DNA of 64,000 bases from an uncultured archaeon. Its GTDB lineage: Archaea > Iainarchaeota > Iainarchaeia > Iainarchaeales > 1-14-0-10-31-34. The stretch lies in the NCBI GenBank assembly GCA_964442255.1, contig CAYTYC010000002.1, positions 730 to 64,729 on the forward strand. The letters run 5' to 3'. A program made the translations under genes and the position numbers. Of the stretch, positions 42,890-63,596 are shown one piece after another (positions within the stretch are counted from its first letter, which is position 1; each line of letters begins with the position of its first letter). Under the pieces are notes generated by a model. The model was not told the DNA's origin. It did not search any database and saw only the letters and a list, made by a program, of their open reading frames with translations.

Positions 42890-44392
42890 TTGAAGCGGAA
42901 CAGGACCGCGTTTTTGCTGGCATTTTTTTTCCTTTTCTATGCTTTTTCACTGAACGGCTTTCTCGGCGCAAACGGCGACGACGCAAATTACGCGATTCTT
43001 GCAAAAGCCCTGGCTGAAGGAAAAGGCTACACTGACTTGCAGTCTCCGGGGCAACCGTTCCATGCGCACTTTCCGCCTGTTTTTCCCCTTCTTATTTCCC
43101 CGTTGGTTTTTTTCTTTGGTCTGAACTTTTTTGCGGTGAAGTTTTTGGTTTCCTTTATCGCAGTTTTGGTCCTTTGCCTTGTCTTTATTTTCTTCAAAAG
43201 GCACTGCTCGGAAAACCTTGCAATCGCGCTCACAGCCCTGTTGGGCTTTTCCCCTCTTTTCTTTTCCTATTCCCACCAGGTGATGGCTGAAATTCCGTTC
43301 ATGTTTTTTGCCTTCCTTTCCCTGTTTTTTTTCGCGAAATTCACTGAAACCAATTCCCGAAACTTTTTCGCGTTTTCCCTGTTGTTTGTTTTGCTTGCAT
43401 TTTTCACCAAGCTTACTGGAATCACTTTTGTTGCCGCACTTCTTTTCGTTTCCTTCCGTAAGGGAATGCTTAAGGACAGGAAAAACCTTTTTCTCGCTTC
43501 TTTGGCGGTTCTTGCCGTTGTTTTCTGGTTTTTTGTTGGAACCCTTGCCCCGGGAAACCCAACCCAGCATTACCTTGAGCTCGCGGCGGTTTCAGACCCA
43601 AGGGACACGGACTTGGGCAGTGTCGGTGTGGAAGGCTTTTTTTCCAGGGCAATCCACCATGCACTGTTTTATGTTTCAAACACCGCCTCAAACCTTTTCC
43701 CGGGATACAATTCCTTTTTCCCGCATTCAAGCATTTTAAGGCATTTCCTTTCCCCACTGATTTTCGCCCTGGTTTTAACCGGTTTTCTCAGTTCACTGCA
43801 CCGGAAAGCCGAGCTAAAGGAAGTCTATTTTCTCTTTTACTTTGCCTTGCTTATTTTTTTCACGAGCTTTGAAGAAAGATACCTCCTTCCGCTTCTGCCT
43901 TTCCTGTTTTATTACTTTTTCACCGGAACGGGGTTTTTGCTGGGCAAACTGAATTTTTCTTTGGGCCTGAAGAAAAACATTCCAAGGTTTTTTTTCCTTT
44001 TGATTCTTTTTCTGGGGGTAATTGCCTCTGCAGGCATTTTTTTGCAGGAAAGGAACCCGAATTACGTTGAAGAAGTCCAAGGCCAGGGCTGGCACAATTA
44101 CCTTAAGGCAGCGGAATGGGCAAAGCAAAACACGCCTGAAGATGCCGTGATTGTAGCAAGGAAACAAAACAACTTTTACATTTACTCCGGGAGAAAGGCT
44201 TTCCATTTTTTCTTCGGCAGCGATGAGGAAAGAATCCTTTCCGAGTTTGAGGAAAAAGGCGCTGGCTTTGTTGTGGTGGACGAATTCAACCTTGAAACAA
44301 AAAAATTCCTTGAGCCTGTGGTCAGGAACAACCCTGAAAGGTTTTCCCTTGTAAAGGAATTCGGGGAAACCCGAATCTACGAATTCACCTGA
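42890..44392 (+). CDS. GT-C-fold glycosyltransferase, PMT_2/ArnT-like (GT39/GT83-type).
   Basis: The loop-1 motif NGDDANYAILAKALAEGKGY (D65/D66, about 42977) matches the PMT_2 pattern DxxxYAxxAxxxxxxG. There are more than 10 TM and a C-terminal soluble domain. The track starts at ATG 42785; the TTG at 42890 (MKRNRTAFLLAFFF) is preferred. Confidence 0.55.
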   Translation: MKRNRTAFLLAFFFLFYAFSLNGFLGANGDDANYAILAKALAEGKGYTDLQSPGQPFHAHFPPVFPLLISPLVFFFGLNFFAVKFLVSFIAVLVLCLVFIFFKRHCSENLAIALTALLGFSPLFFSYSHQVMAEIPFMFFAFLSLFFFAKFTETNSRNFFAFSLLFVLLAFFTKLTGITFVAALLFVSFRKGMLKDRKNLFLASLAVLAVVFWFFVGTLAPGNPTQHYLELAAVSDPRDTDLGSVGVEGFFSRAIHHALFYVSNTASNLFPGYNSFFPHSSILRHFLSPLIFALVLTGFLSSLHRKAELKEVYFLFYFALLIFFTSFEERYLLPLLPFLFYYFFTGTGFLLGKLNFSLGLKKNIPRFFFLLILFLGVIASAGIFLQERNPNYVEEVQGQGWHNYLKAAEWAKQNTPEDAVIVARKQNNFYIYSGRKAFHFFFGSDEERILSEFEEKGAGFVVVDEFNLETKKFLEPVVRNNPERFSLVKEFGETRIYEFT

Positions 44393-45821
44393 TTCCTGGC
44401 CAAAAATCTGCCTTGCTTTCCTTCAGCAAATCCCTGTCCAAAAAAATGTTTGCTGCAATGTAAACAGTTAGGCCTGCAACTGCAAGCAAAACAAGTGAAA
44501 CCAGCCCTCCGGGCATCAGTTCCTTAAGAAATAAAAGCACTGCAGCCATTGCAATTGAAGCAAGAAAAGGTTTCCCAATCCTTTCCACTGAACCGGAAAA
44601 CCTTTCCCCAGCAATCCTTGTTGCCTTGAAGATTGCCAGGGAATTCACAAACAAACAAGCCAAAATCACGGTTATTGCCACACCCATTGCCCCTGCATTA
44701 GAAACAGCCGGAAGAATTAAAACAGCCAAAATAGTGAGGTGAAGCAGTTCGATTTTTGCAAAAAGCCCCGGGTTTCCTGTCGCAAGAAAAAAGTTTCCCG
44801 CAACCGCGCCAATCACCCTGACAGCCCCAAACAATGCAAGTACCTGCATCAGCCCGACCATTGGCGCCCATTTTGCGCCGAAAACAACTGAAACAAACTC
44901 CGGAGCCAGGGCAAACAACCCAAAGCAAAGCAGGAAAACCACAAGGCATGTGTAATGAAGGGTTTTCCTGAAGCCGGCCAAAAGCTTTTCCTTTTCTGCC
45001 CTGATTGAAGAGTAAGTCGGAAACATTACCCTGTTGATTACTGAACTCATCAGTACAGCCGGAAGGTTTGAAATCACCAAAGCCATTGAATAAAATCCAA
45101 GCAGCTCCATCCCCAAAAATTTTCCCACCACCCCGATGTCCAGGTTCAGTATAAGGAAAGTCAGGACACTTGAAACCAAAACAAATTTTCCGTAGCCGAA
45201 CAGCTCCCGCGCAATCCTTTTGTCAAACTCCAGTTTTGGCCTCCAAGAAAACACCAGGTAAAGCATTAATGTGTTTACCACCGAAAGCACAACTGAACCG
45301 TAAACAAGCGCCCAGACACCAAAGCCATTTGCGGCAAAGAAAACAGCACAGGCAAAGTATGCGGTGTATGAAACCAACTGCGCCTGAACAGTTTTCTTGA
45401 ACTTAAGCTGTTTTTCAAGCAAAAAATAGTTCACGTTTCCAAGGGAATGGAAAACAAAAACCAGTGCAAGAATCCTTGTAATCCATTCAATCCTTGCGTC
45501 CCCAAAAAACCCCGCAATAAAAGGCGCGGAAAAGAAAATCAACACAAAAAAGACTGCGCTTACAGCCATTTCAATCCAAAAATTCGTGTTAGCGGCCTTC
45601 CCTATTTCTTCTTTCCTGTAAACAAGCGCCGCACTTATGCCCAAACCCTTGAATGTCTCAAGAAAACCTATTACCGCAAAGCCTATTGCAAACAGCCCGA
45701 ATGCCTCTGGCAAAAGAAACCATGCAAGGATTATCCGGCTCAAAAACTGGATTAAAGTGGTGTAAACATTTGAGCCCAAAACCAGCCCAAGGCTTTTTAC
45801 AGTTCTTAAGGTCAACCCCAT
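44385..45821 (-). CDS. wzx: Wzx-type flippase (MOP superfamily), third copy.
   Basis: The N-terminus is LRTVKSLGLVLGSNVYTTLIQFLSRIILAWFLLPEAFGLFAIGFAV. About 14 TM over 478 aa. Confidence 0.75.
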   Translation of the reverse strand: MGLTLRTVKSLGLVLGSNVYTTLIQFLSRIILAWFLLPEAFGLFAIGFAVIGFLETFKGLGISAALVYRKEEIGKAANTNFWIEMAVSAVFFVLIFFSAPFIAGFFGDARIEWITRILALVFVFHSLGNVNYFLLEKQLKFKKTVQAQLVSYTAYFACAVFFAANGFGVWALVYGSVVLSVVNTLMLYLVFSWRPKLEFDKRIARELFGYGKFVLVSSVLTFLILNLDIGVVGKFLGMELLGFYSMALVISNLPAVLMSSVINRVMFPTYSSIRAEKEKLLAGFRKTLHYTCLVVFLLCFGLFALAPEFVSVVFGAKWAPMVGLMQVLALFGAVRVIGAVAGNFFLATGNPGLFAKIELLHLTILAVLILPAVSNAGAMGVAITVILACLFVNSLAIFKATRIAGERFSGSVERIGKPFLASIAMAAVLLFLKELMPGGLVSLVLLAVAGLTVYIAANIFLDRDLLKESKADFWPGIR

Positions 45822-45892
45822 TCAAATCAGCCTACCTTTTATTAATTGCACAAATAAATAAAAAAGGGGTTAGGGACAAACTTATTTCAGCC

Positions 45893-47065
45893 ATGCAGCC
45901 AAAACCTGAAACAAAAAAACCGGGCGGAAAAATGAAGGTCTGCCTTTTTGGGACTTACGATCCCCTTTACGCCCGCAACCGCGTGCTCCGGAAGGCAATG
46001 CAAAAGCAAGGCATTGAAACAGTTGAATGCAATTCCCCTCTTCCTGCATTTGAGGGAAAAGTGGAAGACAAACTCTCGCACATAAATTTTTTGCTTAAGA
46101 CAAGCTGGGAAAAACTGAAGACCTACTCCTACCTTACTTTAAGGTTCTGGAGAAATGGAAGGGACTGTGACGCAATTTTTGTGCTTTTCCCTTGGGAATG
46201 GGACGTTCCCCTTGCAAGGGTTTTCTCTTTTTTCACGCGCCAGCCGGTTGCTTTTGATGTTTTTGTTTCCAAATACAACACTTTTGTGTTGGACAGCAGG
46301 ATTTTCCCTGAAAAATCTTTTCAGGCGCGCTGGCAGAAATTCAAGGACACTTTTTCATGCTCTTTGGCTGACACAGTGCTGATTCAAACAGAGGCGCAGA
46401 AAAAAGTCTTCATTGAACTGCTTGGAGTTGAAAGAAAAAAATTGAAGACAGTTTACCTCGGCGCAGAGGATGACCTGTTTTTCCCCCGCCCTGAACCAAA
46501 AAACAAGTCATTTAATGTGTTGTTTTTCGGAAGCTTTGTTCCTTTGCAGGGCGCCCACCACATAATCCGGGCAATAAAGCTGCTGGAAAACGAGAAAGAC
46601 ATCCGTTTTAGGCTGATTGGAACAGGGCAAACTTATAGAGAATGCATGAAACTCGCGGAAGATCTTGGAATAAAGAGAACAACTTTTGCGGGCTGGGTCG
46701 ACTATGAATTCATTCCACGGGAAATTGCAAAAGCAGACCTTTGCCTTGGGCAGTTCGGGGAAAGCTTTAAGGGCAGCCTTTTCATCGGCCACAAGGTTTT
46801 TCAGGCAATGGCAATGCAGAAGCCAATAATAAACGGCGATTATGCTGCCGCAAAAGAACATCTTAAGCACAGGGAAAACATTTTCCTCTGCAAAACCGCT
46901 GATGAAAAGGCCTTGGCGGATGCAATCCTGCTATTGAAAAAAAACCCTGCTCTCAGGAAAAAAATCGCCTTCAACGCCTTCAAAACATTTAATGAACGGT
47001 TTTCCACTGAACATATCGGAAAAGAGTTAAAGAATGTTTTCAGCCAATTGCTTAAAGGGAATTAA
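45893..47065 (+). CDS. GT-B (GT4/GT1-like) glycosyltransferase.
   Basis: The N-terminus MKVCLFGTYDPLYARNRVL... is followed by C-terminal FGSFVPLQGAHHIIRAI...GTGQ...QKPIING. The track start at 45653 runs into the divergent Wzx gene; the ATG at 45893 (or 45932) is preferred. Confidence 0.7.
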   Translation: MQPKPETKKPGGKMKVCLFGTYDPLYARNRVLRKAMQKQGIETVECNSPLPAFEGKVEDKLSHINFLLKTSWEKLKTYSYLTLRFWRNGRDCDAIFVLFPWEWDVPLARVFSFFTRQPVAFDVFVSKYNTFVLDSRIFPEKSFQARWQKFKDTFSCSLADTVLIQTEAQKKVFIELLGVERKKLKTVYLGAEDDLFFPRPEPKNKSFNVLFFGSFVPLQGAHHIIRAIKLLENEKDIRFRLIGTGQTYRECMKLAEDLGIKRTTFAGWVDYEFIPREIAKADLCLGQFGESFKGSLFIGHKVFQAMAMQKPIINGDYAAAKEHLKHRENIFLCKTADEKALADAILLLKKNPALRKKIAFNAFKTFNERFSTEHIGKELKNVFSQLLKGN

Positions 47066-47090
47066 GTGCTTAAAATAAAGAGTTGATTTC

Positions 47091-47870
47091 ATGCCAAGAT
47101 TCGGCAAAAACTTTCCCTTAACACAGGGCCTGAACTTTTTTGGCAGACTCGGCTATCTGATTCACGGCTATCACTTCATTGGCGGATTCCAGAGAAGCAT
47201 TTACTTCAGGAAAGCGATAAAGGGGTTAAGTTTTGAGAGAATTCTTGACGCAGGATGCGGGGCGGGGGAATACAGTTTTTTTCTTGCGGAAAAATTTCCG
47301 TTCGCAAAAATTGATGCAATGGACAAGAATAAAACCGCCATCGAACTGAATAAAGCACTGCAGAAAAAACTCAAATTATTGAACATAACCTTTTTTCAGG
47401 GCGACCTAACCAAGCTAAGCAAAAGAAACGAATACGATTTTGCGTTTTCAGTGGATGTATTGGAGCACTTAAAGGAAAACGAGAAGGCAGTCAGGCTGCT
47501 TTTCAAGTCACTGAAAAAAGGGGGCTTTCTTTTTTTGCATATGCCTTCCGGCAAACACACCGAAAAAATGCTTAAAGAAAGAAAACTGAAGCGTTACGCC
47601 GAGTTCGTGAAAGAAGAGCACATAGGAAAAGGGTTTGAACTGGATGAAATGGTTTCCTTTCTGGAGTCTTTGGGGCTTAAAGTTCTCAGTTCAGGGAATT
47701 CGTTTGGCTTCTTTGGCGGAAAGGCCTGGCTGGTTGAACAGGTTCTTCATGAAAAAAGCCTTGGATATTTGAAGGCTATTGCGCTTCCCTTCCTTAAGCT
47801 CTTATGCCATTTGGATGCTTTAATGAAAAACAGGGAAGGTTTTGCGTTCTATGTTTTAGCGCAGAAGTGA
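47091..47870 (+). CDS. Class I SAM-dependent methyltransferase.
   Basis: Motif I is ILDAGCGAGEYSFFLAEK and motif II is DFAFSVDVLEHL. Confidence 0.8.
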   Translation: MPRFGKNFPLTQGLNFFGRLGYLIHGYHFIGGFQRSIYFRKAIKGLSFERILDAGCGAGEYSFFLAEKFPFAKIDAMDKNKTAIELNKALQKKLKLLNITFFQGDLTKLSKRNEYDFAFSVDVLEHLKENEKAVRLLFKSLKKGGFLFLHMPSGKHTEKMLKERKLKRYAEFVKEEHIGKGFELDEMVSFLESLGLKVLSSGNSFGFFGGKAWLVEQVLHEKSLGYLKAIALPFLKLLCHLDALMKNREGFAFYVLAQK

Positions 47871-49004
47871 AGAATAAATTCCGGCTATTTCTTTTGCGGC
47901 CCTTTCAACCGAAAACTCTTTTCTGGCACCTTCTCTTCCCTTTTTGCCCAGCTCTTCCGCGAACTCTTTTTCCCTTAAAAGTTTTTTCACTGCCTCAGCC
48001 AATTCTTCCGCTTTTCCCTCTTTAACCAGCAGCCCTTTCCCTTGAATGTATTCCTCTAAACTTCCCGCCCGGCTTCCCACAACAGGACAGCCTTGAACCA
48101 TTGCCTCCGCCCAGGTCAAGCCAAAGACCTCCGGCCAGAGAGGCGGGCAAACGTAAACGGCCGCCTTTGCATACTCTTCTCTTAGCTTCTTTTCTCCCAT
48201 AAATCCTTTGAACTCAATGTTTCTTGAGACACCTTCTTTTTCCGCCAGTTCTTCAACCTCTTTCCGTAAAGGGTTTTCCTTTTCCTGTTCCATTCCAACA
48301 AACCTTAATTTTGCTTCAGGAAATTCTTTCACTATTTTTCCCATGGCTTTAACCGCAATTCTTGAGCCCTTGAATTCCGCCATTGGCCCTGCAAAAAGAA
48401 TTGTGCTTTCTTCCCTGCCCGCTTCCTTAAGGTCTTTGAAATCAACCCATGGAACAACTGTTTTCCATTTTCCCTTGAGCAATCCGTTTTTTTCGTAGAT
48501 ATTTTTGACTTTCTCGCCTGCTGCAATGCCCAGGTCGCACAGGTTTACTGCTTTTTTGTTTTTCCTTGTCGCAATTAAAGCCCCCATCCCGACGCATGCA
48601 ATGCAGTTCATCCCCCGAACTTTTTCGCAAACCTTTTTGTCTTTTGAAAAGAGAATCCTTTTCCCGCACAGCGGCCAGTAATCATGCCCGAAGTATACAA
48701 CCGGCATTCCGGTTTCCTTTGCCTTCCGGATGGACTGCGTCCCAAGAAGCAGAACATTGTGAACCTGAACCAAATCAATTCCTTTTTCTTCCACAATTTT
48801 TTTCACCAGCCCCTTTGAATCCTTTTTGCTGCTTTTGTGTATTTTTATTTTGGAATGTGAACTCGGGGCCGGGTGGGAGGATGATTCAATTAAGTGAATT
48901 TCCTCCACAAAGCCTTTTTCCAGGAATTCGTTGAGCAGGAGCCTAAGCCTTTTTTCTGTCCCTGAACAGGAGATTCCGTAGTCATTGAGCACAAGTAATT
49001 TCAT
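47856..49004 (-). CDS. Family 4 (GT-B) glycosyltransferase.
   Basis: The N-terminus is MKLLVLNDYGISCSGTEKRL. The C-terminal EVFGLTWAEAMVQGCPVVGS is an E-x7-E-like motif. The track start at 49100 is trimmed to the ATG at 49004. Confidence 0.8.
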   Translation of the reverse strand: MKLLVLNDYGISCSGTEKRLRLLLNEFLEKGFVEEIHLIESSSHPAPSSHSKIKIHKSSKKDSKGLVKKIVEEKGIDLVQVHNVLLLGTQSIRKAKETGMPVVYFGHDYWPLCGKRILFSKDKKVCEKVRGMNCIACVGMGALIATRKNKKAVNLCDLGIAAGEKVKNIYEKNGLLKGKWKTVVPWVDFKDLKEAGREESTILFAGPMAEFKGSRIAVKAMGKIVKEFPEAKLRFVGMEQEKENPLRKEVEELAEKEGVSRNIEFKGFMGEKKLREEYAKAAVYVCPPLWPEVFGLTWAEAMVQGCPVVGSRAGSLEEYIQGKGLLVKEGKAEELAEAVKKLLREKEFAEELGKKGREGARKEFSVERAAKEIAGIYSSLLR

Positions 49005-49176
49005 TTCGTTTTCTCCCTCATTATTTGCACGAGCCTTTCCATGCAGCTTCTTCAGCTCCAGCCCGGATGCTGAATAAAACCCGCATTTAGTTGACCGCAT
49101 TTAACTAAAACGTCTATTTTTTTTAATACCTTTCTACATTATTCTTCTTTAGGCTCACGCCACAGGAAAGAAGCAA

Positions 49177-49941
49177 ATGAAACAGAAAAAGATTGCTGTC
49201 TTTATAATTGCCTACCAAGCGGTGACCACACTTATTTCCGCGATTGACAGGATTCCCCCGGGTTTGATGAAAAAATCCAGAGAAATTTATGTTTTCGATG
49301 ACTGCAGCAATGACAACACCTACTATGCGGGAATAGGCTACAAGTGCCTCAATAAGCTTAACAAGCTGAATGTTTACAGGAACAAGAAAAACCTCGGCTA
49401 CGGCGGAAACCAGAAAAAAGGCTACAATTACGCCATCAGGAAAGGCTATGACATTGTTGTAATGCTTCACGGGGATGTGCAGTATGCCCCGGAAAAAATA
49501 CCTGAATTAATTGCCCCCCTGGAAAAAGGCGAAGCCGACATGGTTTTCGGTTCAAGGATGAAGGGAAACCCCAGGAAAGGCGGAATGCCCCTATGGAAAT
49601 TTTTTGGGAACAAGTTTCTTACTTTCGTTGAAAACAAGGCCCTTGGGCTTAACCTTTCAGAATTCCATTCGGGTTTCAGGGCTTACTCTTGCGGGGCGCT
49701 CAAGAAGCTTCCATTCAACAAAATAACAGACGACTACTACTTTGACACCGAAATATTCATTCTCCTGAAAGAGAAAGGAATGCGGATAAGGGAAATCCCT
49801 ATCCCCACCCACTACGGGCCTGAGTCACATAAAATAACTTTCACGAAATCCGTCAAATATGGTGCAAACATCCTTAAAACTCTGACCAGGTATGTGCTGC
49901 ACAAGAGGGGCATAATAACCGTTGAAAAATTCAATGTTTAA
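49177..49941 (+). CDS. Family 2 glycosyltransferase.
   Basis: It has IAVFIIAYQAVTTL...YVFDDCSNDNT...VVMLHGDVQY. GT-A fold. Confidence 0.8.
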   Translation: MKQKKIAVFIIAYQAVTTLISAIDRIPPGLMKKSREIYVFDDCSNDNTYYAGIGYKCLNKLNKLNVYRNKKNLGYGGNQKKGYNYAIRKGYDIVVMLHGDVQYAPEKIPELIAPLEKGEADMVFGSRMKGNPRKGGMPLWKFFGNKFLTFVENKALGLNLSEFHSGFRAYSCGALKKLPFNKITDDYYFDTEIFILLKEKGMRIREIPIPTHYGPESHKITFTKSVKYGANILKTLTRYVLHKRGIITVEKFNV

Positions 49942-51549: not shown

Positions 51550-51566
51550 CTCCACAGCCAATAAAT

Positions 51567-56398: not shown

Positions 56399-57537
56399 AA
56401 GCCTTTCACTGCATTTAAATAAACGTCTTCAATTTTTAAAGCAATTTTTTTCCAGCCAAACTCTTTTTCCGCTTTTTTCCTTCCGTTTTTTCCCATTCTT
56501 CTGCACATGCTTTTATTCCCCAAAAGTTTTTCCATTTTCTCCGCCAAATCAATTGAATCCCTTGGATTCACAAGCAGCCCGTTTATGCCTTTTTCAACCA
56601 AGTTCCTTACTCCCGGCAAGTCAGATGCAATAACCGCTTTCCCGCAGGCCATTGCCTCAGCCAAAACCAATCCAAATGCTTCGCCTTTGTCTGTTGACGG
56701 AAGCACTGCGAAATCCGCAAGCGCGTAAAACTCAGGCAAAACTTTTTCTTCAACTCTTCCCGTAAAAACAACCCGCTCTTTTATCCCTAATTCGGAAGCC
56801 TTTTTCCTGTAATATTTTTTGAGTTCGCCTTCCCCCACAACAAGCAGTAAAGCATTTTTTTCTTGTATTTTGCTGAATGCATCAAGCAAAACATTCACTC
56901 CCTTAAAGTAATGCGCCTTATCCAGTGCGCCCACAAACAAAACAACTCTCCTGTTCCTTAAACCAAGTTTTTTCTTTAGCCCGCTGCAGTCAATCTTTGG
57001 ATTGAATTTTTCCAATCCAACCCCGTTTGGGATTGCGGAAACATCCTCTTTTCTTTCTTTAAAAATTTCTTTAATGTTAGAGTTTTCTGCATAATCCATA
57101 GAGCTGACAATAATTTTTTTCGAGTTTCCCAGAACAGATTTAAGGAAAACCTTTTCATGGAATTTGAAGAACCGCTTTTTCCACCCCTTTCCCACCACAT
57201 CCATTTGATATGTTGAAACCATTGGAATTCCCCTTGCCTTGGAGGCAAGTGCCGCCAGTTCTCCCCCAAAGTGGTAAGGAAGATGCAAATGCACCAAATC
57301 AAATCCCTTCAATTTAACCAGTCCGGGAGTAAGAATTCCGTTCCCCAGCTTAAACCAGTAATTAAGCCTTTCAACCCCGATTTCCTTTGGATAAGGAAAA
57401 TTTCCTTTCGGGTAGTTTGAGGTGAAAACCTTTACTTTGTGCCCGAGCCTTGCGATTTCCAGTGCATTATGGAACGCGGTATTCCCCACCCCCCCAAAGT
57501 AGGGGGGAAAAGGGGATGCAACAACAGCCACCTTCAC
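56395..57537 (-). CDS. Family 4 (GT-B) glycosyltransferase.
   Basis: The N-terminus is MKVAVVASPFPPYFGGVGNTAFHNALEIARLGHKV. The C-terminus is GEAFGLVLAEAMACGKAVIAS. Confidence 0.85.
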   Translation of the reverse strand: MKVAVVASPFPPYFGGVGNTAFHNALEIARLGHKVKVFTSNYPKGNFPYPKEIGVERLNYWFKLGNGILTPGLVKLKGFDLVHLHLPYHFGGELAALASKARGIPMVSTYQMDVVGKGWKKRFFKFHEKVFLKSVLGNSKKIIVSSMDYAENSNIKEIFKERKEDVSAIPNGVGLEKFNPKIDCSGLKKKLGLRNRRVVLFVGALDKAHYFKGVNVLLDAFSKIQEKNALLLVVGEGELKKYYRKKASELGIKERVVFTGRVEEKVLPEFYALADFAVLPSTDKGEAFGLVLAEAMACGKAVIASDLPGVRNLVEKGINGLLVNPRDSIDLAEKMEKLLGNKSMCRRMGKNGRKKAEKEFGWKKIALKIEDVYLNAVKGL

Positions 57538-58253
57538 TTTCTCTGCCCCCTAAACCTTAACGCAAAACACTCCAAAAGAATTGAGCCATACTTTCCCCCG
57601 ATATCCAGGAGCTTCATTTTGGCTTCCCCTGCTTTCCTGTTTTTCCAGGTTGTGGGCACTTCAGCAATTTTTGCGTTCCTTAAAACCATTGGCTTCAAAA
57701 TCATTTCAGCGGTCAACTCAAAGCAGGTGCTCTTTAATCTTATTCCCTTGAAAACTTCTTTCCTGTAAGCCTTAAACGCGTTTGAAAAGTCTTTAATGTT
57801 TTTTCCGAAAACAAGTGCCAAAACATTGTTGTAAAGCCTGTTGCAAAAAAGCTTAATGAAAGGATACTCAACTGTTTTTCCTCCTTTTACAAACCTTGAA
57901 CCGATCACAATGTCGTACCCTTCACCGACTTTTTTAATCATTTTTGGGATTGTTTTAGGGTCATCGGAAAGGTCAGCCATAACAGGCAAAATGACATTCC
58001 CTTTAGCTTTTTTGAATCCGTCCCTTACAGCCAAGCCAAACCCGTTTGGTGGGGAGCGGTGAATAACCGAAATATTTGAATTCTTTCCTGCAAGCTTGTC
58101 CGCAATTTTTCCGGTCTCATCTGAACTGCAGTCGTCCACAATAATTATTTCACAGCCCAGTTTTCCGCATTCCCGGTAAACTGATTCCACGCATTTCTCC
58201 AGGTTTTTTTCCTCGTTGTGCGCCGGAATAACTATGCTTGCATTCATTTTCAT
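57534..58253 (-). CDS. Dpm1-like GT2, a polyprenyl/dolichyl-phosphate hexosyltransferase.
   Basis: It has MNASIVIPAHNEEKNLEKCVESV...IIIVDDCSSDET. The ~235-aa soluble GT-A is trimmed to the internal ATG (MKMNAS...). Confidence 0.8.
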   Translation of the reverse strand: MKMNASIVIPAHNEEKNLEKCVESVYRECGKLGCEIIIVDDCSSDETGKIADKLAGKNSNISVIHRSPPNGFGLAVRDGFKKAKGNVILPVMADLSDDPKTIPKMIKKVGEGYDIVIGSRFVKGGKTVEYPFIKLFCNRLYNNVLALVFGKNIKDFSNAFKAYRKEVFKGIRLKSTCFELTAEMILKPMVLRNAKIAEVPTTWKNRKAGEAKMKLLDIGGKYGSILLECFALRFRGQRK

Positions 58254-59458
58254 CACAAAACCGTTGTTACGAGATACAAACCCCATATGTCCAAAAGGAA
58301 CAAAAAAACAAAGAAAGAATATTCATTTAACTTCTTCAGAAAGCATGTTTTCAGCACGTCCCTTGTTCCTGCGACAAAAAGCATTGCAATCGGCGCAATA
58401 ACAGGAAAAAAGTGCCTGCCTTGCGGCGATAAATGCTTCAAACTATAGAATAATTCAATCGCGAAAAGAACCGCTACGCTTAAAGCACAAAGCATAACCG
58501 CTTTTCCCTGAATTTTTTCCAGAAAAACCTTCCCTTCCCTCAACCCAAAAAAAACCTTCATCAACCCTGCAAACGCAATAAAGGAAACCAGATAAAGAAA
58601 CGCATACACTGTCCCTGGAAACCTAACCTGATTTGTTATTCCAAACGCGCCCCAAAACGTCTCAAAAATGTTCATCACAAAAAAGTGCGCCTCCCAAAAC
58701 CCAAAAGACGCAATTGCAGGCGCAGCAATCGCGGCTCCAGTCAAGTCCCCGTAAACCGCGAGGTTCCGCGCAAACCACGGCGCGACAACTGCTGCAGCTA
58801 ACCCAACTGCAATCAGGGACTTTTTCAGGAAACCCTTTTTTGTTCCGTTAAAGTAAAACGCAAGCACCGCAACAGGCACCCCGATGAAGAGGGTGTACTT
58901 TGTGAGGATTCCTGCAGCCAAAAGCACGCCAACCAAAACCGCTGTCAATGTTCCTGGCTTTTCCTGCACAGCTTTCACTAAATAGTAAAGCAAAACTGAA
59001 AAAACAAGGTAAGAGAACGTGTCGTTTCCGATTACCGCGGTCATTGCAATGTGCGCCGGAAGCAATGCAACAAACAATGCCGAGCCAACAGCAAGCCATT
59101 CCTTTTCAGGAAAAACTTTTCCCGCAATCCTGTACACAAGGTAAATTCCAAGTACCCCCAGGAAAACAGACAAAAGCCTTAACGCGTAAATCGCCGGCAA
59201 TTCACCAAAGCCCGCAAAAAGGCTGAAAGGAATCAATGCAACCAAATAATATGCCGGGGGCTGCCAGTTCTGGTAGTCCTTGTGTCCGGAAACCATGCTG
59301 TGCTCCGCAACAGGAAAAGCCTTGTTTTCATTAAGGAAGAGGATGTAATTGTAGTGCGGCTCTTCATCAGGCGCCTCCCAGACAGGAATGCTGAAGCAAA
59401 AAATCAGCCGCAAAAGCAATGCCAGAACCAAAACAATTGCGATTTTGTTTTTATCCAC
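58253..59458 (-). CDS. GT-C-fold glycosyltransferase, ArnT/PMT_2-like.
   Basis: The N-terminus is MDKNKIAIVLVLALLLRLIF, and the loop-1 motif is EAPDEEPHYNYILFL (D31 about 59368). There are more than 10 TM. It lies directly upstream of a Dpm1-like GT2. Confidence 0.55.
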   Translation of the reverse strand: MDKNKIAIVLVLALLLRLIFCFSIPVWEAPDEEPHYNYILFLNENKAFPVAEHSMVSGHKDYQNWQPPAYYLVALIPFSLFAGFGELPAIYALRLLSVFLGVLGIYLVYRIAGKVFPEKEWLAVGSALFVALLPAHIAMTAVIGNDTFSYLVFSVLLYYLVKAVQEKPGTLTAVLVGVLLAAGILTKYTLFIGVPVAVLAFYFNGTKKGFLKKSLIAVGLAAAVVAPWFARNLAVYGDLTGAAIAAPAIASFGFWEAHFFVMNIFETFWGAFGITNQVRFPGTVYAFLYLVSFIAFAGLMKVFFGLREGKVFLEKIQGKAVMLCALSVAVLFAIELFYSLKHLSPQGRHFFPVIAPIAMLFVAGTRDVLKTCFLKKLNEYSFFVFLFLLDIWGLYLVTTVL

Positions 59459-59459
59459 T

Positions 59460-60377
59460 TCACTTCCCCCAAAACCATTTCTGCCCGCTCAGAACTCTGC
59501 AAACATTTTTGGGAAGAAATTTTCCGTTTTTCCCCGCAGTCAGCCCTGAAAACTTTACCGTGCCTGAAACAAGCGCGTAAGGAATTAGGTGTGAGAGGTT
59601 TTCTTTTTGCAGCCACCCCACTAATTCCCTGTAAAACCCTATTCCTGATTTAGTGAAACGGGCTGAATCAAAGTTTTCATGGATCTGCGAATAAGAGTAG
59701 CCGATGTCAAAGTGTCTCCTGAAATCCGATGCCAATCCATGGCTATGGGAATGAAGTACAGCTGCTTCCGGTTCGTAAACTATGTCAAAGCCTTTCCGCA
59801 TAACCCTGAAGGCCCATTCATAGTCCTCTGAGACAATTGTTTTCTCGGAGAAAGGCTCTTCCAGAAAAAGTTTTCTTTTAACCGCGGAATTCGCATTAGA
59901 AAAAACAATGTCCTCTTCACCCCGGTTTTTGGAGTTTCGGAAAATTTTTTTGTTTCCATATTTTTTTCCGTAAAAAAACTTTTCCATTGGCGAAGAGTTT
60001 TTCCTTGCAACCTGCCTTCCATAAGTGCCTGCAACATTTTTTTCTTTCAGCCCCTGCACAAGCTTCTTCAGCCATTCTATGGTTTCCGGAACAGCATCTT
60101 GTGTAAGGAAAACCAAATACTTTCCTTTTGCTTCCCTTGCCATCGCATTCCTGGTTTTTCCGTGCCCGAATTCTTTTGGGGAAATGGTCTTTAGCTTTAC
60201 AGGAAACTTTTCCGCTATTTCCCTTGTGCAGTCGGTTGAACCGGAATCCCACACCACAACATCAAAGGAAACCCCTTTCTGGGCAAACACCTGTTCAAGG
60301 ACTTTTTGAAGGCCTTTTCCTGCGTTTCTTGTGGGGATAAGGACAGAGGCATCTGTTGCTGGCATTAAAGAGAACAT
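59460..60377 (-). CDS. Family 2 glycosyltransferase.
   Basis: It has ASVLIPTRNAGKGLQKVLEQV...VVVWDSGSTDCT...FLTQDAV. Confidence 0.75.
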   Translation of the reverse strand: MFSLMPATDASVLIPTRNAGKGLQKVLEQVFAQKGVSFDVVVWDSGSTDCTREIAEKFPVKLKTISPKEFGHGKTRNAMAREAKGKYLVFLTQDAVPETIEWLKKLVQGLKEKNVAGTYGRQVARKNSSPMEKFFYGKKYGNKKIFRNSKNRGEEDIVFSNANSAVKRKLFLEEPFSEKTIVSEDYEWAFRVMRKGFDIVYEPEAAVLHSHSHGLASDFRRHFDIGYSYSQIHENFDSARFTKSGIGFYRELVGWLQKENLSHLIPYALVSGTVKFSGLTAGKNGKFLPKNVCRVLSGQKWFWGK

Positions 60378-60391
60378 GCTGGGAAAACAAT

Positions 60392-61933
60392 TTATTCCTT
60401 TACAGGCGCGGGCATAAGTTTTCTTGCCATTGAAATAAGCCTTTCCAGCCCTATTCCTGTGAGAAGGATTATTGTGTAAACAAGCATTGTCACAAGAATT
60501 GTGTAGGATACAAGAAAATGCGTTGAAATAACCGGGTTAAGGTAAATAAAGAAAAGCATGAAAACAAGAAGTATGACAAGGATTTTTGCCCTTTTGCTGA
60601 AAACACTGAAGTAAAAGCCAACCATTGCGATAATGAAGTGTGAAAGGCTCACATAGTAGAGGACATTCAAAAGGTTTCCTGCGGTTGGCTGGAAAGAGAA
60701 AAGGTTTGAAGCCAGGACAAGCATCACGACGCTTGCGCCAGCCCAAAAAAGCACAAGCCTCTTTGAGGCAATGCTTTTGAATTCGGTTGCAAGATAGAAA
60801 AGAAAAACAAAGAAAAGCACCGTGAAGAGTTCCCTGCTGAAGATGAACAGCGTAGCGTAAGGAATTAAGGTGAACACATACCTTTGTATATTCTCCCTTC
60901 CAAACGTCACAAGTATTCCATAAAGCGCGGCAATAAACAGCCCGAAGCCGATAAGCATGTTGAAAGGAAGCAGTGTTATGCTATTAAGGAAATTAAAAGA
61001 AAAAACCAGGGTAATTGAAGACAAAGTGCTTGCAAGGAAGTTTCCTTTTGTCATGTAAATCATCAGGCTGTAAGTTAAAACAAGGAGTGTGGAAGAAAAA
61101 AGAAAAGGCGCGAGTTCAAAACCCAAGAAACCAAAGGAATAGTTTGAGGTATAAAAGTTTTTGGTGAGCCCGAAACTAACCGCCAAATGCGTTACAAGGT
61201 TAACCGCAAGCAGGAAAGGAAGGAGCGCCATGTTGTACTTCACTACTCTCGGGTTGCGCAAAAACTTCAAGTCAAAAAGCCTTCTTGCAATTTTCACTCC
61301 GTCCCTGAATGCGTTAAGTTTGGGTTCATCCCCGCGAGTGCGGTAGGTAATCGGAATTTCGGTGAACAAAAAATCCCTGTGGGTGCATTCACTGAAAAGG
61401 TTTGCCTCAATGTCAAACCCTTCCGCAGTGAGTTCAACCCCTTTAATGACTTTTTTCCTGAAACCCCAATATCCAGTGCACAAATCAGTTATCTTTGAGC
61501 CGAACAAAAGGTTTGCAATAAAGGTAAGCCCCCTATTTCCCAGGAGGTTTGTTCCGCTCATCGCACCTTTTTGTATGGAGCCCTTAAGCCTTGACCCCAA
61601 AACCACGTCCGAGCCTTTTTCCAGTTCGCCCAAAATCGGGATAATGTACTCCCCGGGGTAGGTTTCATCAGCGTCAAGCATTATGGTGTAATCCGTTTGA
61701 ATATAATTGAATGCATCCCTTACTGCGTTTCCTTTCCCTTTCCTTGTCTGGATAACTGTTGCGCCTTTTTTTTTCGCGATTTCCTCTGTCCTGTCAGTGG
61801 AGGGGCCATTAACTACAAGCACCCCTGTTTTGAAGCCCATTTCCCTTAATTTCTTGAGCGGAATTTCCCCTATAACATTTCCAATATGTTTTTCCTCGTT
61901 CAAAGCCGGGATAAAAATAGTCAATGATTCCAT
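60392..61933 (-). CDS. AglD-like fusion: a Dpm1-type GT2 domain followed by a polytopic C-terminal membrane domain.
   Basis: The N-terminal ~230 aa is GT-A (LTIFIPALNEEKHIGNV...VLVVNGPSTDRT...MLDADE). Another ~280 aa carrying 8 or more TM helices follows. Confidence 0.7.
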   Translation of the reverse strand: MESLTIFIPALNEEKHIGNVIGEIPLKKLREMGFKTGVLVVNGPSTDRTEEIAKKKGATVIQTRKGKGNAVRDAFNYIQTDYTIMLDADETYPGEYIIPILGELEKGSDVVLGSRLKGSIQKGAMSGTNLLGNRGLTFIANLLFGSKITDLCTGYWGFRKKVIKGVELTAEGFDIEANLFSECTHRDFLFTEIPITYRTRGDEPKLNAFRDGVKIARRLFDLKFLRNPRVVKYNMALLPFLLAVNLVTHLAVSFGLTKNFYTSNYSFGFLGFELAPFLFSSTLLVLTYSLMIYMTKGNFLASTLSSITLVFSFNFLNSITLLPFNMLIGFGLFIAALYGILVTFGRENIQRYVFTLIPYATLFIFSRELFTVLFFVFLFYLATEFKSIASKRLVLFWAGASVVMLVLASNLFSFQPTAGNLLNVLYYVSLSHFIIAMVGFYFSVFSKRAKILVILLVFMLFFIYLNPVISTHFLVSYTILVTMLVYTIILLTGIGLERLISMARKLMPAPVKE

Positions 61934-62030
61934 CGAAAAAATATGCGCTAAACCCAATTTAAAGCTTTATGGGGCCCGGAAGGCAATCAAATAAATTTTA
62001 ATTCATTAAACACTATTATAAAGTGTTACA

Positions 62031-63596
62031 ATGAACAGGGACTTAATTGCAAAAGCGTTTTTATGGGCAGGGCTTATCGCTTTTTTCTTTCTGCTTAGCT
62101 GGTTTTTTACCTACTCAATCCACGACTTTTACCCTCTTCCATATCATTCGGATGAATGGGACCACATCGCAATTGCAAACGAAATCGCCAGAACAGATGG
62201 CCTGGTGAACTACAACCCTTATTGGAGGGAAGGATGGGACCCGCAGTGGGAGCAAAACTACCATGTGCTGATGGTTCTCCTGATGAATGCGACCGGCTGG
62301 GATGTCGCGGATTTGGGCGGGGTTTATGTTGCCCTTTTCATTCCCGTTTTAATGACTTTTCTGATGGTTTTTTTCACTTTCCTTCTTGTAAGGCATTTGA
62401 CTGGAAGCAACATCGCCGGACTGATAGCTTCCGTAACAGTTCTCTTGACCCGGCCAAACCCCACCCTCCTCGGTTACTGGTTTGCTGTTCCAATGGCTTT
62501 TGGATTGGCTTTCATTCCAATGGTTTTGTTTCTATTCGTAAAGGCTTTTTCCTCTAAGGGATACGCATACTTTGCCGCTCTTTCCTTGGTGTTTGCGAAC
62601 CTTACTTTGGTGCACCCGGCTTCCGCAATAATTTTCCTTCCGGCTTTTTTTGTTTACTTAATGATTCACCCAAAGCTTTTGGTCCAAAACAAATACAAAA
62701 TGGCTTTCGTTGTTTTGGAGCTTGCGGCCCTTGCCTTGCTTATGGTTACCTATTCAATCGCCGATTTTTCTTTTGGCACAAGGGCTGAATTCATTGAAAC
62801 AGTGTTTAGGACAATTACCTTCACTACCTCCCTTTACGAAGTGCAGGTCTTCTTTTTTCTTCCAAGGTTTTTAACCTGGGCTGGCTTTGCTTTGGGTTTG
62901 ATTGGAATGGGTTACATGTTGCTTCTAAGGAACCGTGAAGCAAAAATTCTTCCCCTGCTTGCCATAACCCTGGTGCCCTTGATTTACCTTTTCTTTACCC
63001 AGGAAAGAATTTTTTTGGCTGACTACCGGCGGGTTTTCATGTACGTTGCAACTGTTTTTGCGATTCTTTCGGGAATCGGAATTTACGCAATTGTTTCCGG
63101 ATTAAACCATTTGCTTAAGAAAAAAATTTCAAAACTCAGCATCCGAAACAAAATCGGATTGATTCGTTTTCCGCAGGCATTGATAGCGTTGGTTGTGGGC
63201 TTTCTGCTGTTAAACCAGCTTCTGCTGATTCCTTTCACCCATCTCCCCTATCTTTACCGTGTTATAGAGGAAGATGATGTTCCCGCGATTTTGTGGCTCA
63301 AGCACAACTCCAATATTGATGAAGTTGTTTTGGCTTTGCCCGGCCATTCCCGTGCGATACACGGGATAGCCGGAAACAAGGTTTTGTATGTTAATATGGC
63401 CCGCCTCCGCGGTCCACGGGGGGAGGAAGAGGCATTTGAATTCTTGAGCGTTGGATGCGAGCAAAGGGCCAAAATGCTTTACGGGCGCCCCAACTTTGTT
63501 TACAGCGCAGAACCTTTGGGGTGTGATTTTTTAAAGGAAGTTTATTCAATTAATGACAGGCACGTTTACCGGGTGGATTACAGTGAAATCACTTAA
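62031..63596 (+). CDS. GT-C-fold glycosyltransferase, ArnT/PMT_2-like.
   Basis: The N-terminal TM is followed by a loop-1 motif YHSDEWDHIAIANEIARTDG (D41 about 62151). There are more than 11 TM and a C-terminal soluble domain. Confidence 0.55.
   Translation: MNRDLIAKAFLWAGLIAFFFLLSWFFTYSIHDFYPLPYHSDEWDHIAIANEIARTDGLVNYNPYWREGWDPQWEQNYHVLMVLLMNATGWDVADLGGVYVALFIPVLMTFLMVFFTFLLVRHLTGSNIAGLIASVTVLLTRPNPTLLGYWFAVPMAFGLAFIPMVLFLFVKAFSSKGYAYFAALSLVFANLTLVHPASAIIFLPAFFVYLMIHPKLLVQNKYKMAFVVLELAALALLMVTYSIADFSFGTRAEFIETVFRTITFTTSLYEVQVFFFLPRFLTWAGFALGLIGMGYMLLLRNREAKILPLLAITLVPLIYLFFTQERIFLADYRRVFMYVATVFAILSGIGIYAIVSGLNHLLKKKISKLSIRNKIGLIRFPQALIALVVGFLLLNQLLLIPFTHLPYLYRVIEEDDVPAILWLKHNSNIDEVVLALPGHSRAIHGIAGNKVLYVNMARLRGPRGEEEAFEFLSVGCEQRAKMLYGRPNFVYSAEPLGCDFLKEVYSINDRHVYRVDYSEIT

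What the first reader, a model, noticed from the sequence alone, without database searches (positions are those of the whole stretch)
42890..63596. Expanded family of GT-C-fold paralogues sharing an acidic loop-1 motif.
At least six polytopic proteins begin with one TM followed by a short loop carrying an acidic pair: FNGDDFGYL (30563 gene), VSDDFLLLDYG (35217), NGDDANYAILAKAL (42890), SSGDEAGFLLASL (49942), APDEEPHYNYILFL (58253) and HSDEWDHIAIANEIA (62031). This is the catalytic-loop position of GT-C enzymes such as ArnT and PMT, which use polyprenyl-phosphate sugar donors outside the membrane. Three of the six fit the PMT_2 pattern DxxxYAxxAxxxxxxG. Six to eight such enzymes in 35 kb is an extreme expansion for what looks like a small genome. 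It suggests combinatorial or phase-variable surface mannosylation/glycosylation.
Basis: partly seen in the sequence, partly recalled or inferred. Interest (0 to 1): 0.6.

Follow-up and report, generated by a model that had tools for sequence, protein, structure and literature searches.

The report
Eight GT-C glycosyltransferases in one archaeal island
A roughly 43-kb surface-sugar gene island of a small (DPANN-type) archaeon carries eight very different membrane glycosyltransferases of the ArnT/PMT/oligosaccharyltransferase fold next to the enzymes that make and flip their lipid-linked sugar donors; this is a dense but recognisable version of a known system, not a recent or switchable gene expansion.

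Summary

- **Evidence per protein:**
  - Four (35217, 42785, 49942, 58253) pass Pfam PMT_2.
  - 62031 and 54701 have no Pfam hit, but their AlphaFold models match only GT-C enzymes.
  - 26048 and the orphan 30563 align full-length to the 42785 family by hhalign, at 87% and 93% probability.
- **Conserved residues:** In the three families I could align, one Asp just after a transmembrane helix and one Arg about 290-375 residues later are invariant or nearly so. The second acidic residue is conserved in two families and variable in the third.
- **Likely donors:** Five neighbouring GT2 genes resemble dolichyl-/undecaprenyl-phosphate sugar synthases. An ArnE/F-like protein, a flippase-like protein and three Wzx flippases are also present. 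This is the known three-component layout (GtrABC, ArnC/EF/T, AglD/R/S).
- **Not supported:**
  - Recent expansion. The paralogues share at most about 30% identity, and some have closer, syntenic orthologues in other DPANN contigs.
  - Phase variation. There are no simple repeats, no invertible segments, and no excess of homopolymer tracts.

Verdict: new members of a known kind, including two GT-C families without a Pfam model of their own. Moderate interest.

The parts
20334..63596 (.). Whole glycosylation island. It holds 8 GT-C genes, about 9 GT2, about 7 GT4, 3 Wzx/MOP flippases, a flippase-like protein, 5-6 SAM methyltransferases, 2 radical-SAM enzymes, a carbamoyltransferase and a deacetylase.
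   Evidence: Pfam scans. GC falls from about 0.48 to about 0.43 at about 20 kb.
26048..27433 (-). GT-C candidate H (461 aa), motif SDGFAHY after TM1.
   Evidence: NCBIfam LA_3751/LA_3752 putative glycosyltransferase, 8.1e-11, below the family cut-off. hhalign against the 42785 family: 85-87%, E 4e-6, residues 19-441.
30563..32359 (+). GT-C candidate A (598 aa), motif GDD. An orphan, and the least certain of the eight.
   Evidence: No Pfam, NCBIfam or PDB hit. No homologue found. hhalign against the 42785 family: 93.4%, E 2.6e-7, residues 5-565, with GDD on GDD and the C-terminal soluble domain at 95%. It also has 'FRYLAPVLP' resembling 'ERYLLPLLP'.
35217..37196 (+). GT-C B (659 aa), PMT_2, motif SDD. 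First gene of a GT-C -> GT2 -> flippase-like run on the same strand.
   Evidence: PMT_2 2.8e-7, 31.3 bits against a cut-off of 26.1. hhalign 97.5%, E 6e-12.
37240..38103 (+). GT2 resembling a polyprenyl-phosphate sugar synthase.
   Evidence: AglJ 1.8e-34, Dol-P-hexose transferase 2.6e-24, ArnC 5.9e-19, PpgS 2.9e-18. All are below the equivalog cut-offs.
38104..39063 (+). Flippase-like membrane protein (LPG_synthase_TM / TIGR00374).
   Evidence: Pfam 6.2e-28. TIGR00374 at 63.6 bits against a cut-off of 43.2.
42872..44392 (+). GT-C C (506 aa as deposited; the ORF is open from 42785), PMT_2, motif GDD. It lies tail-to-tail with the Wzx gene 44385-45821.
   Evidence: PMT_2 4.4e-10, PMT 3.7e-4 (below cut-off), DUF6798. 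In the family alignment D36, R336 and P343 are invariant. The C|Wzx|GT4|methyltransferase order is conserved in L007.
49177..49941 (+). GT2 resembling AglJ/PpgS, directly upstream of GT-C D.
   Evidence: AglJ 1.1e-16, PpgS 6e-10, Dol-P-hexose transferase 4.8e-8, all below cut-offs.
49954..51549 (+). GT-C D (about 531 aa), PMT_2, motif GDE. Probable ATA start.
   Evidence: PMT_2 5.1e-9. hhalign 97.0%, E 1e-10. No canonical start lies upstream of the motif. GGGG + 7 nt + ATA fits the Shine-Dalgarno pattern seen across the island.
54701..56398 (-). GT-C G (565 aa), from a family with no Pfam model. Motifs: S[ST]DE after TM2, WPxIExRPQQxG, H207, N437, R441.
57534..58286 (-). GT2 resembling a Dol-P-hexose synthase. 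It overlaps the 3' end of GT-C E.
   Evidence: Dol-P-hexose transferase 6.7e-26, AglJ 1e-24, ArnC 1.8e-23, all below cut-offs. The ORF coordinates overlap.
58253..59458 (-). GT-C E (401 aa), PMT_2, motif PDEE. It has no C-terminal soluble domain.
   Evidence: PMT_2 3e-13, 50.7 bits. hhalign 96.4%, E 1e-9.
60392..61957 (-). I: an AglJ-like GT2 fused to a membrane domain of about 7 TM helices. Divergent partner of F.
   Evidence: AglJ 1.2e-55, Dol-P-hexose transferase 2.6e-33, both below the equivalog cut-offs. Orthologues sit beside F orthologues in L004-L006 and L008.
62031..63596 (+). GT-C F (521 aa), DUF6541-like family. H39, D41, E42, W43 and R334 are invariant.
   Evidence: Alignment A1. 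DUF6541 is hit by two homologues. hhalign against the 42785 family: 98.1%, E 9.6e-14, 431 columns. AlphaFold2 pLDDT 78, pTM 0.81. The top 28 Foldseek hits are all GT-C, and ArnT gives TM-score 0.57-0.59.
33009..33743 (+). GT2 whose best NCBIfam match is AglJ.
   Evidence: AglJ 8.8e-16, ArnC 6.4e-10, PpgS 1.6e-9, all below cut-offs.
19905..20303 (-). Small 4-TM EamA-type protein resembling ArnE/ArnF. Candidate lipid-phosphate-sugar flippase at the left edge of the island.
   Evidence: EamA 2.4e-7. ArnF 7.6e-12 and ArnE 6.7e-8, both below cut-offs.
22106..23554 (+). Wzx/MOP flippase.
   Evidence: Polysacc_synt 3.4e-28.
27485..28738 (+). Wzx-like flippase (weaker match).
   Evidence: Polysacc_synt 1e-8.
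44385..45821 (-). Wzx/MOP flippase.
   Evidence: Polysacc_synt_3 3e-74. MOP flippase family 3e-71.

Best explanation
Window 20.3-63.6 kb is a surface-glycan biosynthesis island of a DPANN archaeon. The nearest reference genome found is a Candidatus Iainarchaeum MAG, and related contigs are labelled Micrarchaeota.

It encodes eight anciently diverged GT-C-fold glycosyltransferases:
- five ArnT/PMT_2-like (35217, 42872, 49954, 58253, 26048);
- one DUF6541-like (62031);
- one orphan related to the 42872 family (30563);
- one from an unmodelled family whose fold is closest to oligosaccharyltransferases (54701).

Proposed mechanism (inferred, not shown):
1. AglJ/DPM1/GtrB/ArnC-like GT2 enzymes encoded next to them load single sugars onto dolichyl phosphate on the cytoplasmic face.
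2. An ArnE/F-like protein, the LPG_synthase_TM-type flippase-like protein or the Wzx proteins move these donors across the membrane.
3. Each GT-C enzyme transfers its sugar, on the outer face, to a growing glycan on a lipid carrier or on a surface glycoprotein. The conserved Asp at the start of the first outside loop acts on the acceptor or metal. The conserved Arg about 290-375 residues later holds the donor phosphate.

The cytoplasmic GT4 and GT2 enzymes, methyltransferases, radical-SAM enzymes and the carbamoyltransferase build and decorate the core glycan.

The set is a co-located collection of distinct subfamilies with some cassette-like differences between genomes. It is not a recent duplication burst or a phase-variable system.
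For: **Shown.**
- PMT_2 above its gathering score for four proteins.
- Near-full-length profile alignments of A, B, D, E, F and H to the C family with the Asp motifs in register.
- Asp and Arg invariant or nearly so within the three families with alignments.
- A matching R-x-x motif in all eight proteins.
- K/R-containing N-termini and net-acidic first loops.
- Five GT2 genes whose best NCBIfam matches are polyprenyl-phosphate sugar synthases.
- Gene order: B -> GT2 -> flippase-like; GT2 -> D; E -> GT2 overlapping; I divergent from F.
- ArnF/ArnE-like protein and a flippase-like protein above its cut-off.
- Orthologues of C, F, G and I in conserved synteny in other DPANN contigs.

**Known precedents.**
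- Three-component systems in bacteria (PMC11127046).
- AglD/AglR/AglS in Haloferax (PMC3871713).
Against: - None of the GT2 or ArnE/F matches reaches NCBIfam's equivalog cut-off, so the donor sugar and even the synthase role are inferred.
- Only one GT-C (B) has a complete same-strand triad. A, C, G and H have no adjacent synthase-like GT2.
- F and G score best against oligosaccharyltransferases, which use lipid-diphosphate oligosaccharide donors.
- Protein A rests on a 93% hhalign match. An HMMER search with the same family profile is not significant.
- Residue-level equivalence of the Asp with the catalytic Asp of ArnT, PMT or PglB could not be checked.
- Membrane topology rests on the positive-inside rule and a crude helix predictor.
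- D may be poorly translated or a pseudogene.
Confidence: 0.72

Rival explanations
1. One reading: a recent, lineage-specific expansion of one GT-C family that provides phase-variable or combinatorial surface glycosylation.
For: High local density: eight GT-C genes in 37.5 kb. One GT-C + GT2 pair (58253/57534) is absent from the syntenic stretch in relatives. Gene D lacks a canonical start codon, which could in principle be an off state.
Against: - No significant pairwise BLASTP hit among the eight; identity is at most about 30%.
- No shared DNA repeats.
- C, F and G are closer to proteins in other genomes (51%, 61%, 34% identity) than to any neighbour, and their synteny is conserved.
- No simple-sequence repeats, and homopolymers are at background density.
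- No inverted repeats flank promoters.
Confidence: 0.05
2. Some members, especially G (54701) and F (62031), are not monosaccharide transferases. They would transfer or polymerise en bloc from dolichyl-diphosphate oligosaccharides, acting like AglB/PglB oligosaccharyltransferases or as glycan ligases or polymerases. The three Wzx flippases would supply their substrates.
For: - G has a D/E motif, then an E-x-R motif about 100 residues later, then a late Arg. From my own knowledge of PglB, this layout resembles it.
- G has GT4 genes on both sides rather than a synthase-like GT2.
- No Wzy-type polymerase was found in the island.
Against: - None of the eight has a WWDYG-type motif.
- In the G model everything after residue 492 is low-confidence, with no folded C-terminal domain predicted. 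F's C-terminal domain is only about 110 residues.
- F aligns full-length with PMT_2-type proteins, and its highest TM-scores are with ArnT.
- WaaL-type ligase and SEDS proteins score at noise level.
Confidence: 0.15
3. The polytopic proteins without database hits (A 30563, and to a lesser extent H 26048) are not glycosyltransferases. They would be unrelated membrane proteins, such as transporters or structural proteins, whose Phe/Leu-rich helices align spuriously.
For: A has no Pfam, NCBIfam, PDB or homologue hit at all. An HMMER search with the C-family profile gives a negative score for A. No structural model was made for A or H.
Against: - hhalign places A's GDD on the family's invariant Asp, and its C-terminal soluble domain matches at 95%, E 3e-8. 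That part is not compositionally biased.
- A also carries the R-Y-L-x-P-x-L-P motif.
- H hits a curated putative GT-C family at 8e-11.
Confidence: 0.08

Closest known systems
ArnT / PMT_2 (Pfam PF13231; CAZy GT83/GT39-type GT-C enzymes)
   Same: Four proteins pass the PMT_2 model. All have many TM helices and a conserved Asp just after TM1, and most have a soluble domain after the last helix. Modelled member F superposes on ArnT at TM-score 0.57-0.59. An ArnC-like GT2 and an ArnE/F-like small membrane protein are also in the island.
   Different: No member reaches any curated NCBIfam family cut-off, and no sequence-level hit to a solved structure was found. The acceptor cannot be lipid A in an archaeon. 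The second acidic residue of the 'DE/DD' pair is not conserved in the 42785 family. E lacks the C-terminal domain.
Three-component extracytoplasmic glycosylation systems (GtrA/GtrB/Gtr*, CsbB-YfhO, ArnC/EF/T; in archaea AglD/AglR/AglS)
   Same: A GT2 resembling a polyprenyl-phosphate sugar synthase lies beside a GT-C enzyme, with a flippase candidate nearby. B -> GT2 -> flippase-like is a complete same-strand triad.
   Different: Five synthase-like GT2 genes and eight GT-C genes sit in one island, rather than one to three pairs scattered around a genome. One flippase candidate is of the LPG_synthase_TM type rather than GtrA/SMR or MATE. Several GT-C genes have no adjacent synthase.
STT3 / AglB / PglB oligosaccharyltransferases
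   Different: There is no WWDYG motif and no large C-terminal acceptor-binding domain. There is no significant sequence match; the only hits to archaeo_STT3 are 22.5 and 13.6 bits against a cut-off of 450.
Pfam DUF6541 (uncharacterised membrane family)
   Same: Two close homologues of F hit it (best E 1.7e-12).
   Different: F itself does not hit it. The family has no assigned function. The evidence here assigns F and its relatives to the GT-C fold.

Membership tests
GT-C fold glycosyltransferases (superfamily) | 8-13 transmembrane helices | tested here: met
   A crude hydropathy count gives 10-14 helices for all eight. The AlphaFold models of F and G show 11-14 long helices. The definition is taken from PMC5836110.
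GT-C fold glycosyltransferases (superfamily) | Acidic motif (DXD, DDX, DEX or similar) in an extracytoplasmic loop, typically the first | tested here: met
   The motif is present after TM1 in seven proteins and after TM2 in G. The Asp is invariant or nearly so in the three families with alignments. The outside location is inferred from K/R-containing N-termini and acidic loops, not measured.
GT-C fold glycosyltransferases (superfamily) | Three-dimensional similarity to solved GT-C enzymes | tested here: met
   Met for F and G only.
GT-C fold glycosyltransferases (superfamily) | Uses a lipid-phosphate-linked sugar donor | not testable with these tools
   Only contextual evidence: neighbouring synthase-like GT2 genes and flippase candidates.
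Pfam PMT_2 (PF13231) | Score above the gathering threshold (26.1 bits) | tested here: met
   Met for B (31.3), C (40.4), D (37.0) and E (50.7). Not met for A, F, G and H, which have no hit.
STT3/AglB oligosaccharyltransferase | WWDYG-type motif in a C-terminal soluble domain, and a match to the family HMM | tested here: not met
   No W[WYF]D[YWF]G or WWD in any of the nine proteins checked. The archaeo_STT3 matches are 22.5 and 13.6 bits against a cut-off of 450.
Three-component glycosylation system | Polyprenyl-phosphate sugar synthase (GT2) encoded with the GT-C gene | tested here: inconclusive
   Five GT2 genes have AglJ, Dol-P-hexose transferase, ArnC or PpgS as best matches (1e-16 to 1e-55), but all are below equivalog cut-offs. 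Adjacency holds for B, D, E and F, and not for A, C, G and H.
Three-component glycosylation system | Dedicated flippase for the lipid-monophosphate sugar | tested here: inconclusive
   Candidates are the flippase-like TIGR00374 protein above its cut-off, an ArnF/ArnE-like protein below its cut-off, and three Wzx/MOP proteins. Activity cannot be tested here.
Phase-variable (contingency) loci | Simple-sequence repeats or invertible segments in or upstream of the genes | tested here: not met
   No di- to heptanucleotide repeats. There are 68 homopolymers (A/T runs of 8 or more, G/C runs of 7 or more) in the window, 17 of them in the eight genes against about 13.6 expected. No promoter-flanking inverted repeats.
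Recent paralogous expansion | Paralogues closer to each other than to proteins of other genomes | tested here: not met
   Best in-window pairs have 27-29% identity over about 110 residues. External homologues have 51% (C), 61% (F) and 34% (G) identity, with conserved synteny.

The most novel reading that the evidence does not exclude
The island is a modular 'glycan coat' toolkit of an ectosymbiotic DPANN archaeon. GT-C + synthase cassettes would be swapped between lineages to change the surface glycan, and so host or virus recognition. Some of the PMT_2-like members would be the still-unidentified archaeal protein O-glycosyltransferases, acting on the Thr/Ser/Gly-rich surface proteins encoded just upstream (6744-11270 and 17378-19372). 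G and F would found new GT-C families.
Probability: 0.15. Interest if true: 0.7.

Novelty: new member of a known kind. Interest (0 to 1): 0.38.

Why it matters
**Annotation.** It assigns a fold and a likely role to several 'hypothetical' membrane proteins of DPANN archaea. These are the DUF6541-like F family, the unmodelled G family, and the orphan A.

**Biology.** A genome that is probably small devotes a large block to outside-the-membrane glycosylation, which fits a lifestyle that depends on cell-cell contact.

**What it offers experimentally.**
- Candidate enzymes for archaeal surface glycosylation steps, including O-glycosylation, which to my knowledge has no identified enzyme in archaea.
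- Clear mutational targets: D41/E42/R334 in F, D67/E68/E163/R165/R441 in G, and D36/R336 in C.

It does not reveal a new mechanism.

Tried and rejected
**Searches that found nothing useful.**
- Sequence searches of A, F, C, E and the F- and C-family profiles against all PDB chains gave no meaningful hit. The Asp therefore could not be mapped residue by residue onto ArnT, PMT or PglB.
- The word-indexed homologue search for A found only A itself.
- Metagenome scans for A and D found nothing.
- An exact-DNA search of the reference genomes found nothing. The organism was placed only through a 44%-identical pilus ATPase.
- The afdb50 fold library was unavailable.

**Methods that proved unreliable.**
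- My whole-protein positive-inside tally was inconsistent, because helix miscounts flip the parity. I rely only on the N-terminus and first-loop charges.
- An HMMER profile search is too weak for A and G.

**Ideas considered and rejected.**
- Transporters: fold searches rule these out.
- Wzy/WaaL/SEDS-type enzymes: these score at noise level.
- True oligosaccharyltransferases: there is no WWDYG motif.
- Tandem duplication: there are no DNA repeats between the genes.
- Phase variation: there are no repeats and no homopolymer enrichment.
- tRNA-flanked mobile island: there is no tRNA in the window.


Full report
**What is in the sequence**

A six-frame ORF map with hydropathy counts and Pfam scans of nearly every ORF from 20 to 64 kb give one continuous glycosylation island from about 20.3 kb to at least 63.6 kb. 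GC content falls from about 0.48 to about 0.43 at its left edge. The island contains:
- about nine GT2 and seven GT4 glycosyltransferases;
- three Wzx/MOP flippases;
- a flippase-like LPG_synthase_TM protein;
- five or six SAM methyltransferases;
- two radical-SAM enzymes, a carbamoyltransferase and a deacetylase;
- eight polytopic proteins of 401-659 residues.

The first 20 kb carry archaeal-type pilins, a pilus ATPase and platform protein, a PAC2 proteasome chaperone, and two large anchored surface proteins.

The pilus ATPase is 44% identical to that of a Candidatus Iainarchaeum MAG, which is the nearest reference genome found. Close homologues of window proteins come from groundwater contigs and from a MAG labelled Micrarchaeota. 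The organism is therefore a DPANN archaeon. Its own contig in NCBI is 75.6 kb. A relative's contig is 1.19 Mb.

**Checking the observation**

All six quoted motifs are present exactly as written, each just after the first hydrophobic helix. Each such helix is preceded by a K/R-containing N-terminus. The loop that follows has a net charge of -1 to -8. By the positive-inside rule this puts the loop outside the cell, but that is an inference. My whole-protein charge tally was unreliable.

Two more proteins show the same pattern:
- 26048-27433(-), with 'SDGFAHY';
- 54701-56398(-), with 'STDE' after a second helix.

**Are they GT-C enzymes?**

| Protein | Coordinates | Evidence |
|---|---|---|
| B | 35217 | PMT_2, 31.3 bits (cut-off 26.1); hhalign to C family 97.5%, E 6e-12 |
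| C | 42785/42872 | PMT_2, 40.4 bits |
| D | 49942 | PMT_2, 37.0 bits; hhalign 97.0%, E 1e-10 |
| E | 58253 | PMT_2, 50.7 bits; hhalign 96.4%, E 1e-9 |
| F | 62031 | No Pfam hit; profile and structure evidence below |
| G | 54701 | No Pfam or NCBIfam hit; structure evidence below |
| H | 26048 | Leptospira LA_3751/3752 putative glycosyltransferase, 8e-11 (below cut-off); hhalign 87% over residues 19-441 |
| A | 30563 | Orphan; hhalign 93.4%, details below |

*F (62031).* It has nine homologues, two of which hit DUF6541. H39, D41, E42, W43 and R334 are invariant in the family alignment. The F-family profile aligns over 431 columns with the C-family profile at 98.1% probability, E 9.6e-14, with HSDEWDH on NGDDANY. 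Its AlphaFold model has pLDDT 78 and pTM 0.81. The 28 best Foldseek matches in the PDB are all GT-C enzymes: STT3/PglB at E 1e-8, then DPY19, AftA, ArnT at TM-score 0.57-0.59, and EmbB. Transporters appear only at E above 0.1 and TM-score about 0.1.

*A (30563).* It is an orphan, with no family hit, no PDB hit and no homologue. hhalign still aligns residues 5-565 to the C family at 93.4%, E 2.6e-7, with GDD on the invariant Asp. Its C-terminal soluble domain matches at 95%, E 3e-8. It also shares 'FRYLAPVLP' with C's 'ERYLLPLLP'. I rate A as probable rather than certain.

**What is actually conserved**

- In the C family the only invariant residues besides the start are the first Asp of 'GDD', R336 and P343. 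The second 'acidic' position is D/N/S/F/G/E.
- In the F family both D41 and E42 are invariant, and in the G family D67 and E68 are nearly invariant.
- So the shared feature is a single Asp, and the pair holds only in some families.
- All eight window proteins have an Arg in an R-[YHRNT]-x motif about 290-375 residues after the Asp. Within the F, C and G families this Arg is invariant or nearly so.
- In both models the Asp sits at the start of the first helix after the membrane helix.
- From my own knowledge of ArnT, PMT and PglB, this matches the position of their loop-1 catalytic or metal-binding Asp, and the Arg is a plausible phosphate ligand.
- I could not verify this residue by residue.

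**How it probably works**

Five GT2 genes have their best NCBIfam matches to polyprenyl-phosphate sugar synthases: AglJ, haloarchaeal Dol-P-hexose transferase, ArnC and PpgS. These are 33009, 37240, 49177, 57534, and the GT2 half of 60392. E-values run from 1e-16 to 1e-55, all below the equivalog cut-offs.

Their placement is telling:
- B is followed on the same strand by GT2 37240 and then the flippase-like gene 38104.
- GT2 49177 ends three bases before D's reading frame opens.
- E overlaps GT2 57534.
- The GT2-membrane fusion 60392 is the divergent neighbour of F, and this pairing is conserved in four related contigs.

A 132-residue EamA-type protein at the island's left edge is most similar to ArnF (7.6e-12) and ArnE.

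This is the layout of three-component extracytoplasmic glycosylation: a synthase, a flippase and a GT-C enzyme. It is described for bacteria in PMC11127046. In Haloferax the equivalent is AglD, AglR and AglS, which add the final mannose to the N-glycan (PMC3871713).

The acceptors are unknown. The anchored surface proteins just upstream are plausible candidates by position only. One has a Thr/Ser/Gly-rich linker and many N-x-S/T sites.

**What is not supported**

*Recent expansion.*
- BLASTP among the eight finds nothing significant. The best pairs share 27-29% identity over about 110 residues.
- There are no DNA repeats between them.
- C, F and G have closer relatives elsewhere, at 51%, 61% and 34% identity.
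- The orders F|I-GT2...GT4-G-GT4 and C|Wzx|GT4|methyltransferase recur in other contigs.
- So these are old, distinct subfamilies that sit together.

*Cassette differences.* The E + GT2 57534 pair is missing from the syntenic stretch in relatives, where a GT2 and a radical-SAM gene sit instead. This supports cassette-like differences between genomes.

*Phase variation.*
- There are no simple-sequence repeats.
- The window has 68 homopolymers (A/T runs of at least 8, G/C runs of at least 7). Seventeen are in the eight genes, against about 13.6 expected from their length.
- There are no promoter-flanking inverted repeats.

*Oligosaccharyltransferases.* None of the proteins has a WWDYG motif, so none is an AglB-type enzyme. 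G's and F's closest folds are nevertheless of that type. This keeps open, at about 15%, the possibility that they use diphosphate-linked oligosaccharide donors.

**Verdict**

The core interpretation holds: these are GT-C enzymes with an outside-facing Asp that use lipid-phosphate sugar donors. The 'expansion' and 'phase-variable' parts do not hold. This is a dense example of a known kind of system. Its added value is the assignment of two families without a Pfam model of their own (F/DUF6541-like and G) and one orphan (A) to the GT-C fold.

Noticed in passing
window 49939-50070: GT-C gene D has no ATG/GTG/TTG between the upstream stop codon (TAA 49939-41) and TTG 50068, yet its first membrane helix and GDE motif are encoded in that gap. 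A GGGG box followed 7 nt later by ATA (49954) fits the ribosome-binding pattern of the other island genes. This suggests either a non-canonical ATA start or an ATG-to-ATA change. An automatic call from TTG 50068 would cut off the catalytic loop.
   Followed up: partly
window 60392-61957 (-): An AglJ-like GT2 is fused to a membrane domain of about 7 helices. hhalign aligns this domain (84.7%, E 6.7e-6) to the middle and late helices of the F-family GT-C core, but it has no Asp loop. It might be a degenerate GT-C-like domain fused to a Dol-P-sugar synthase. It is conserved next to F in four related contigs.
   Followed up: partly
window 19905-20303 (-): A small 132-residue EamA-type membrane protein whose best matches are ArnF (7.6e-12) and ArnE, the flippase subunits for undecaprenyl-phosphate aminoarabinose. 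It sits at the left edge of the island.
   Followed up: partly
window 30563-32359 (+): Protein A has no detectable homologue. The word-indexed search of 5.8 billion proteins returned only A itself, and a metagenome scan returned nothing. Its very Phe/Leu-rich sequence may have swamped the word index.
   Followed up: partly
window 33750-35183 (-), 39060-40571 (-), 40556-41644 (-), 23562-25289 (+): The island also encodes a B12-binding radical-SAM enzyme, a SPASM-domain radical-SAM enzyme, a 503-residue protein with two methyltransferase-domain matches (by Pfam stretch count), and a NodU/CmcH-type carbamoyltransferase. Together these suggest unusual sugar modifications such as C-methylation or carbamoylation.
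   Followed up: no
window 239-3006, 13392-16625: An archaeal type IV pilus-like locus: several small proteins with pilin-type N-termini, plus a T2SSE-family ATPase and a T2SSF-family platform protein.
   Followed up: no
window 6744-11270 (+) and 17378-19372 (-): Two large anchored surface proteins with no Pfam family, apart from a Cys-rich Dicty_CTDC repeat in the second. The second has a Thr/Ser/Gly-rich linker and many N-x-S/T sites. They are possible acceptors for the island's enzymes.
   Followed up: no
window about 20000: GC content drops from about 0.48-0.50 to about 0.41-0.44 at the start of the island and stays low to the end of the window. No tRNA gene was found anywhere in the window.
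   Followed up: partly
window 42785-42890: The long ORF of GT-C C would overlap the start of the divergent GT4 gene 41641-42792. The deposited protein (P0011) starts at GTG 42872.
   Followed up: yes
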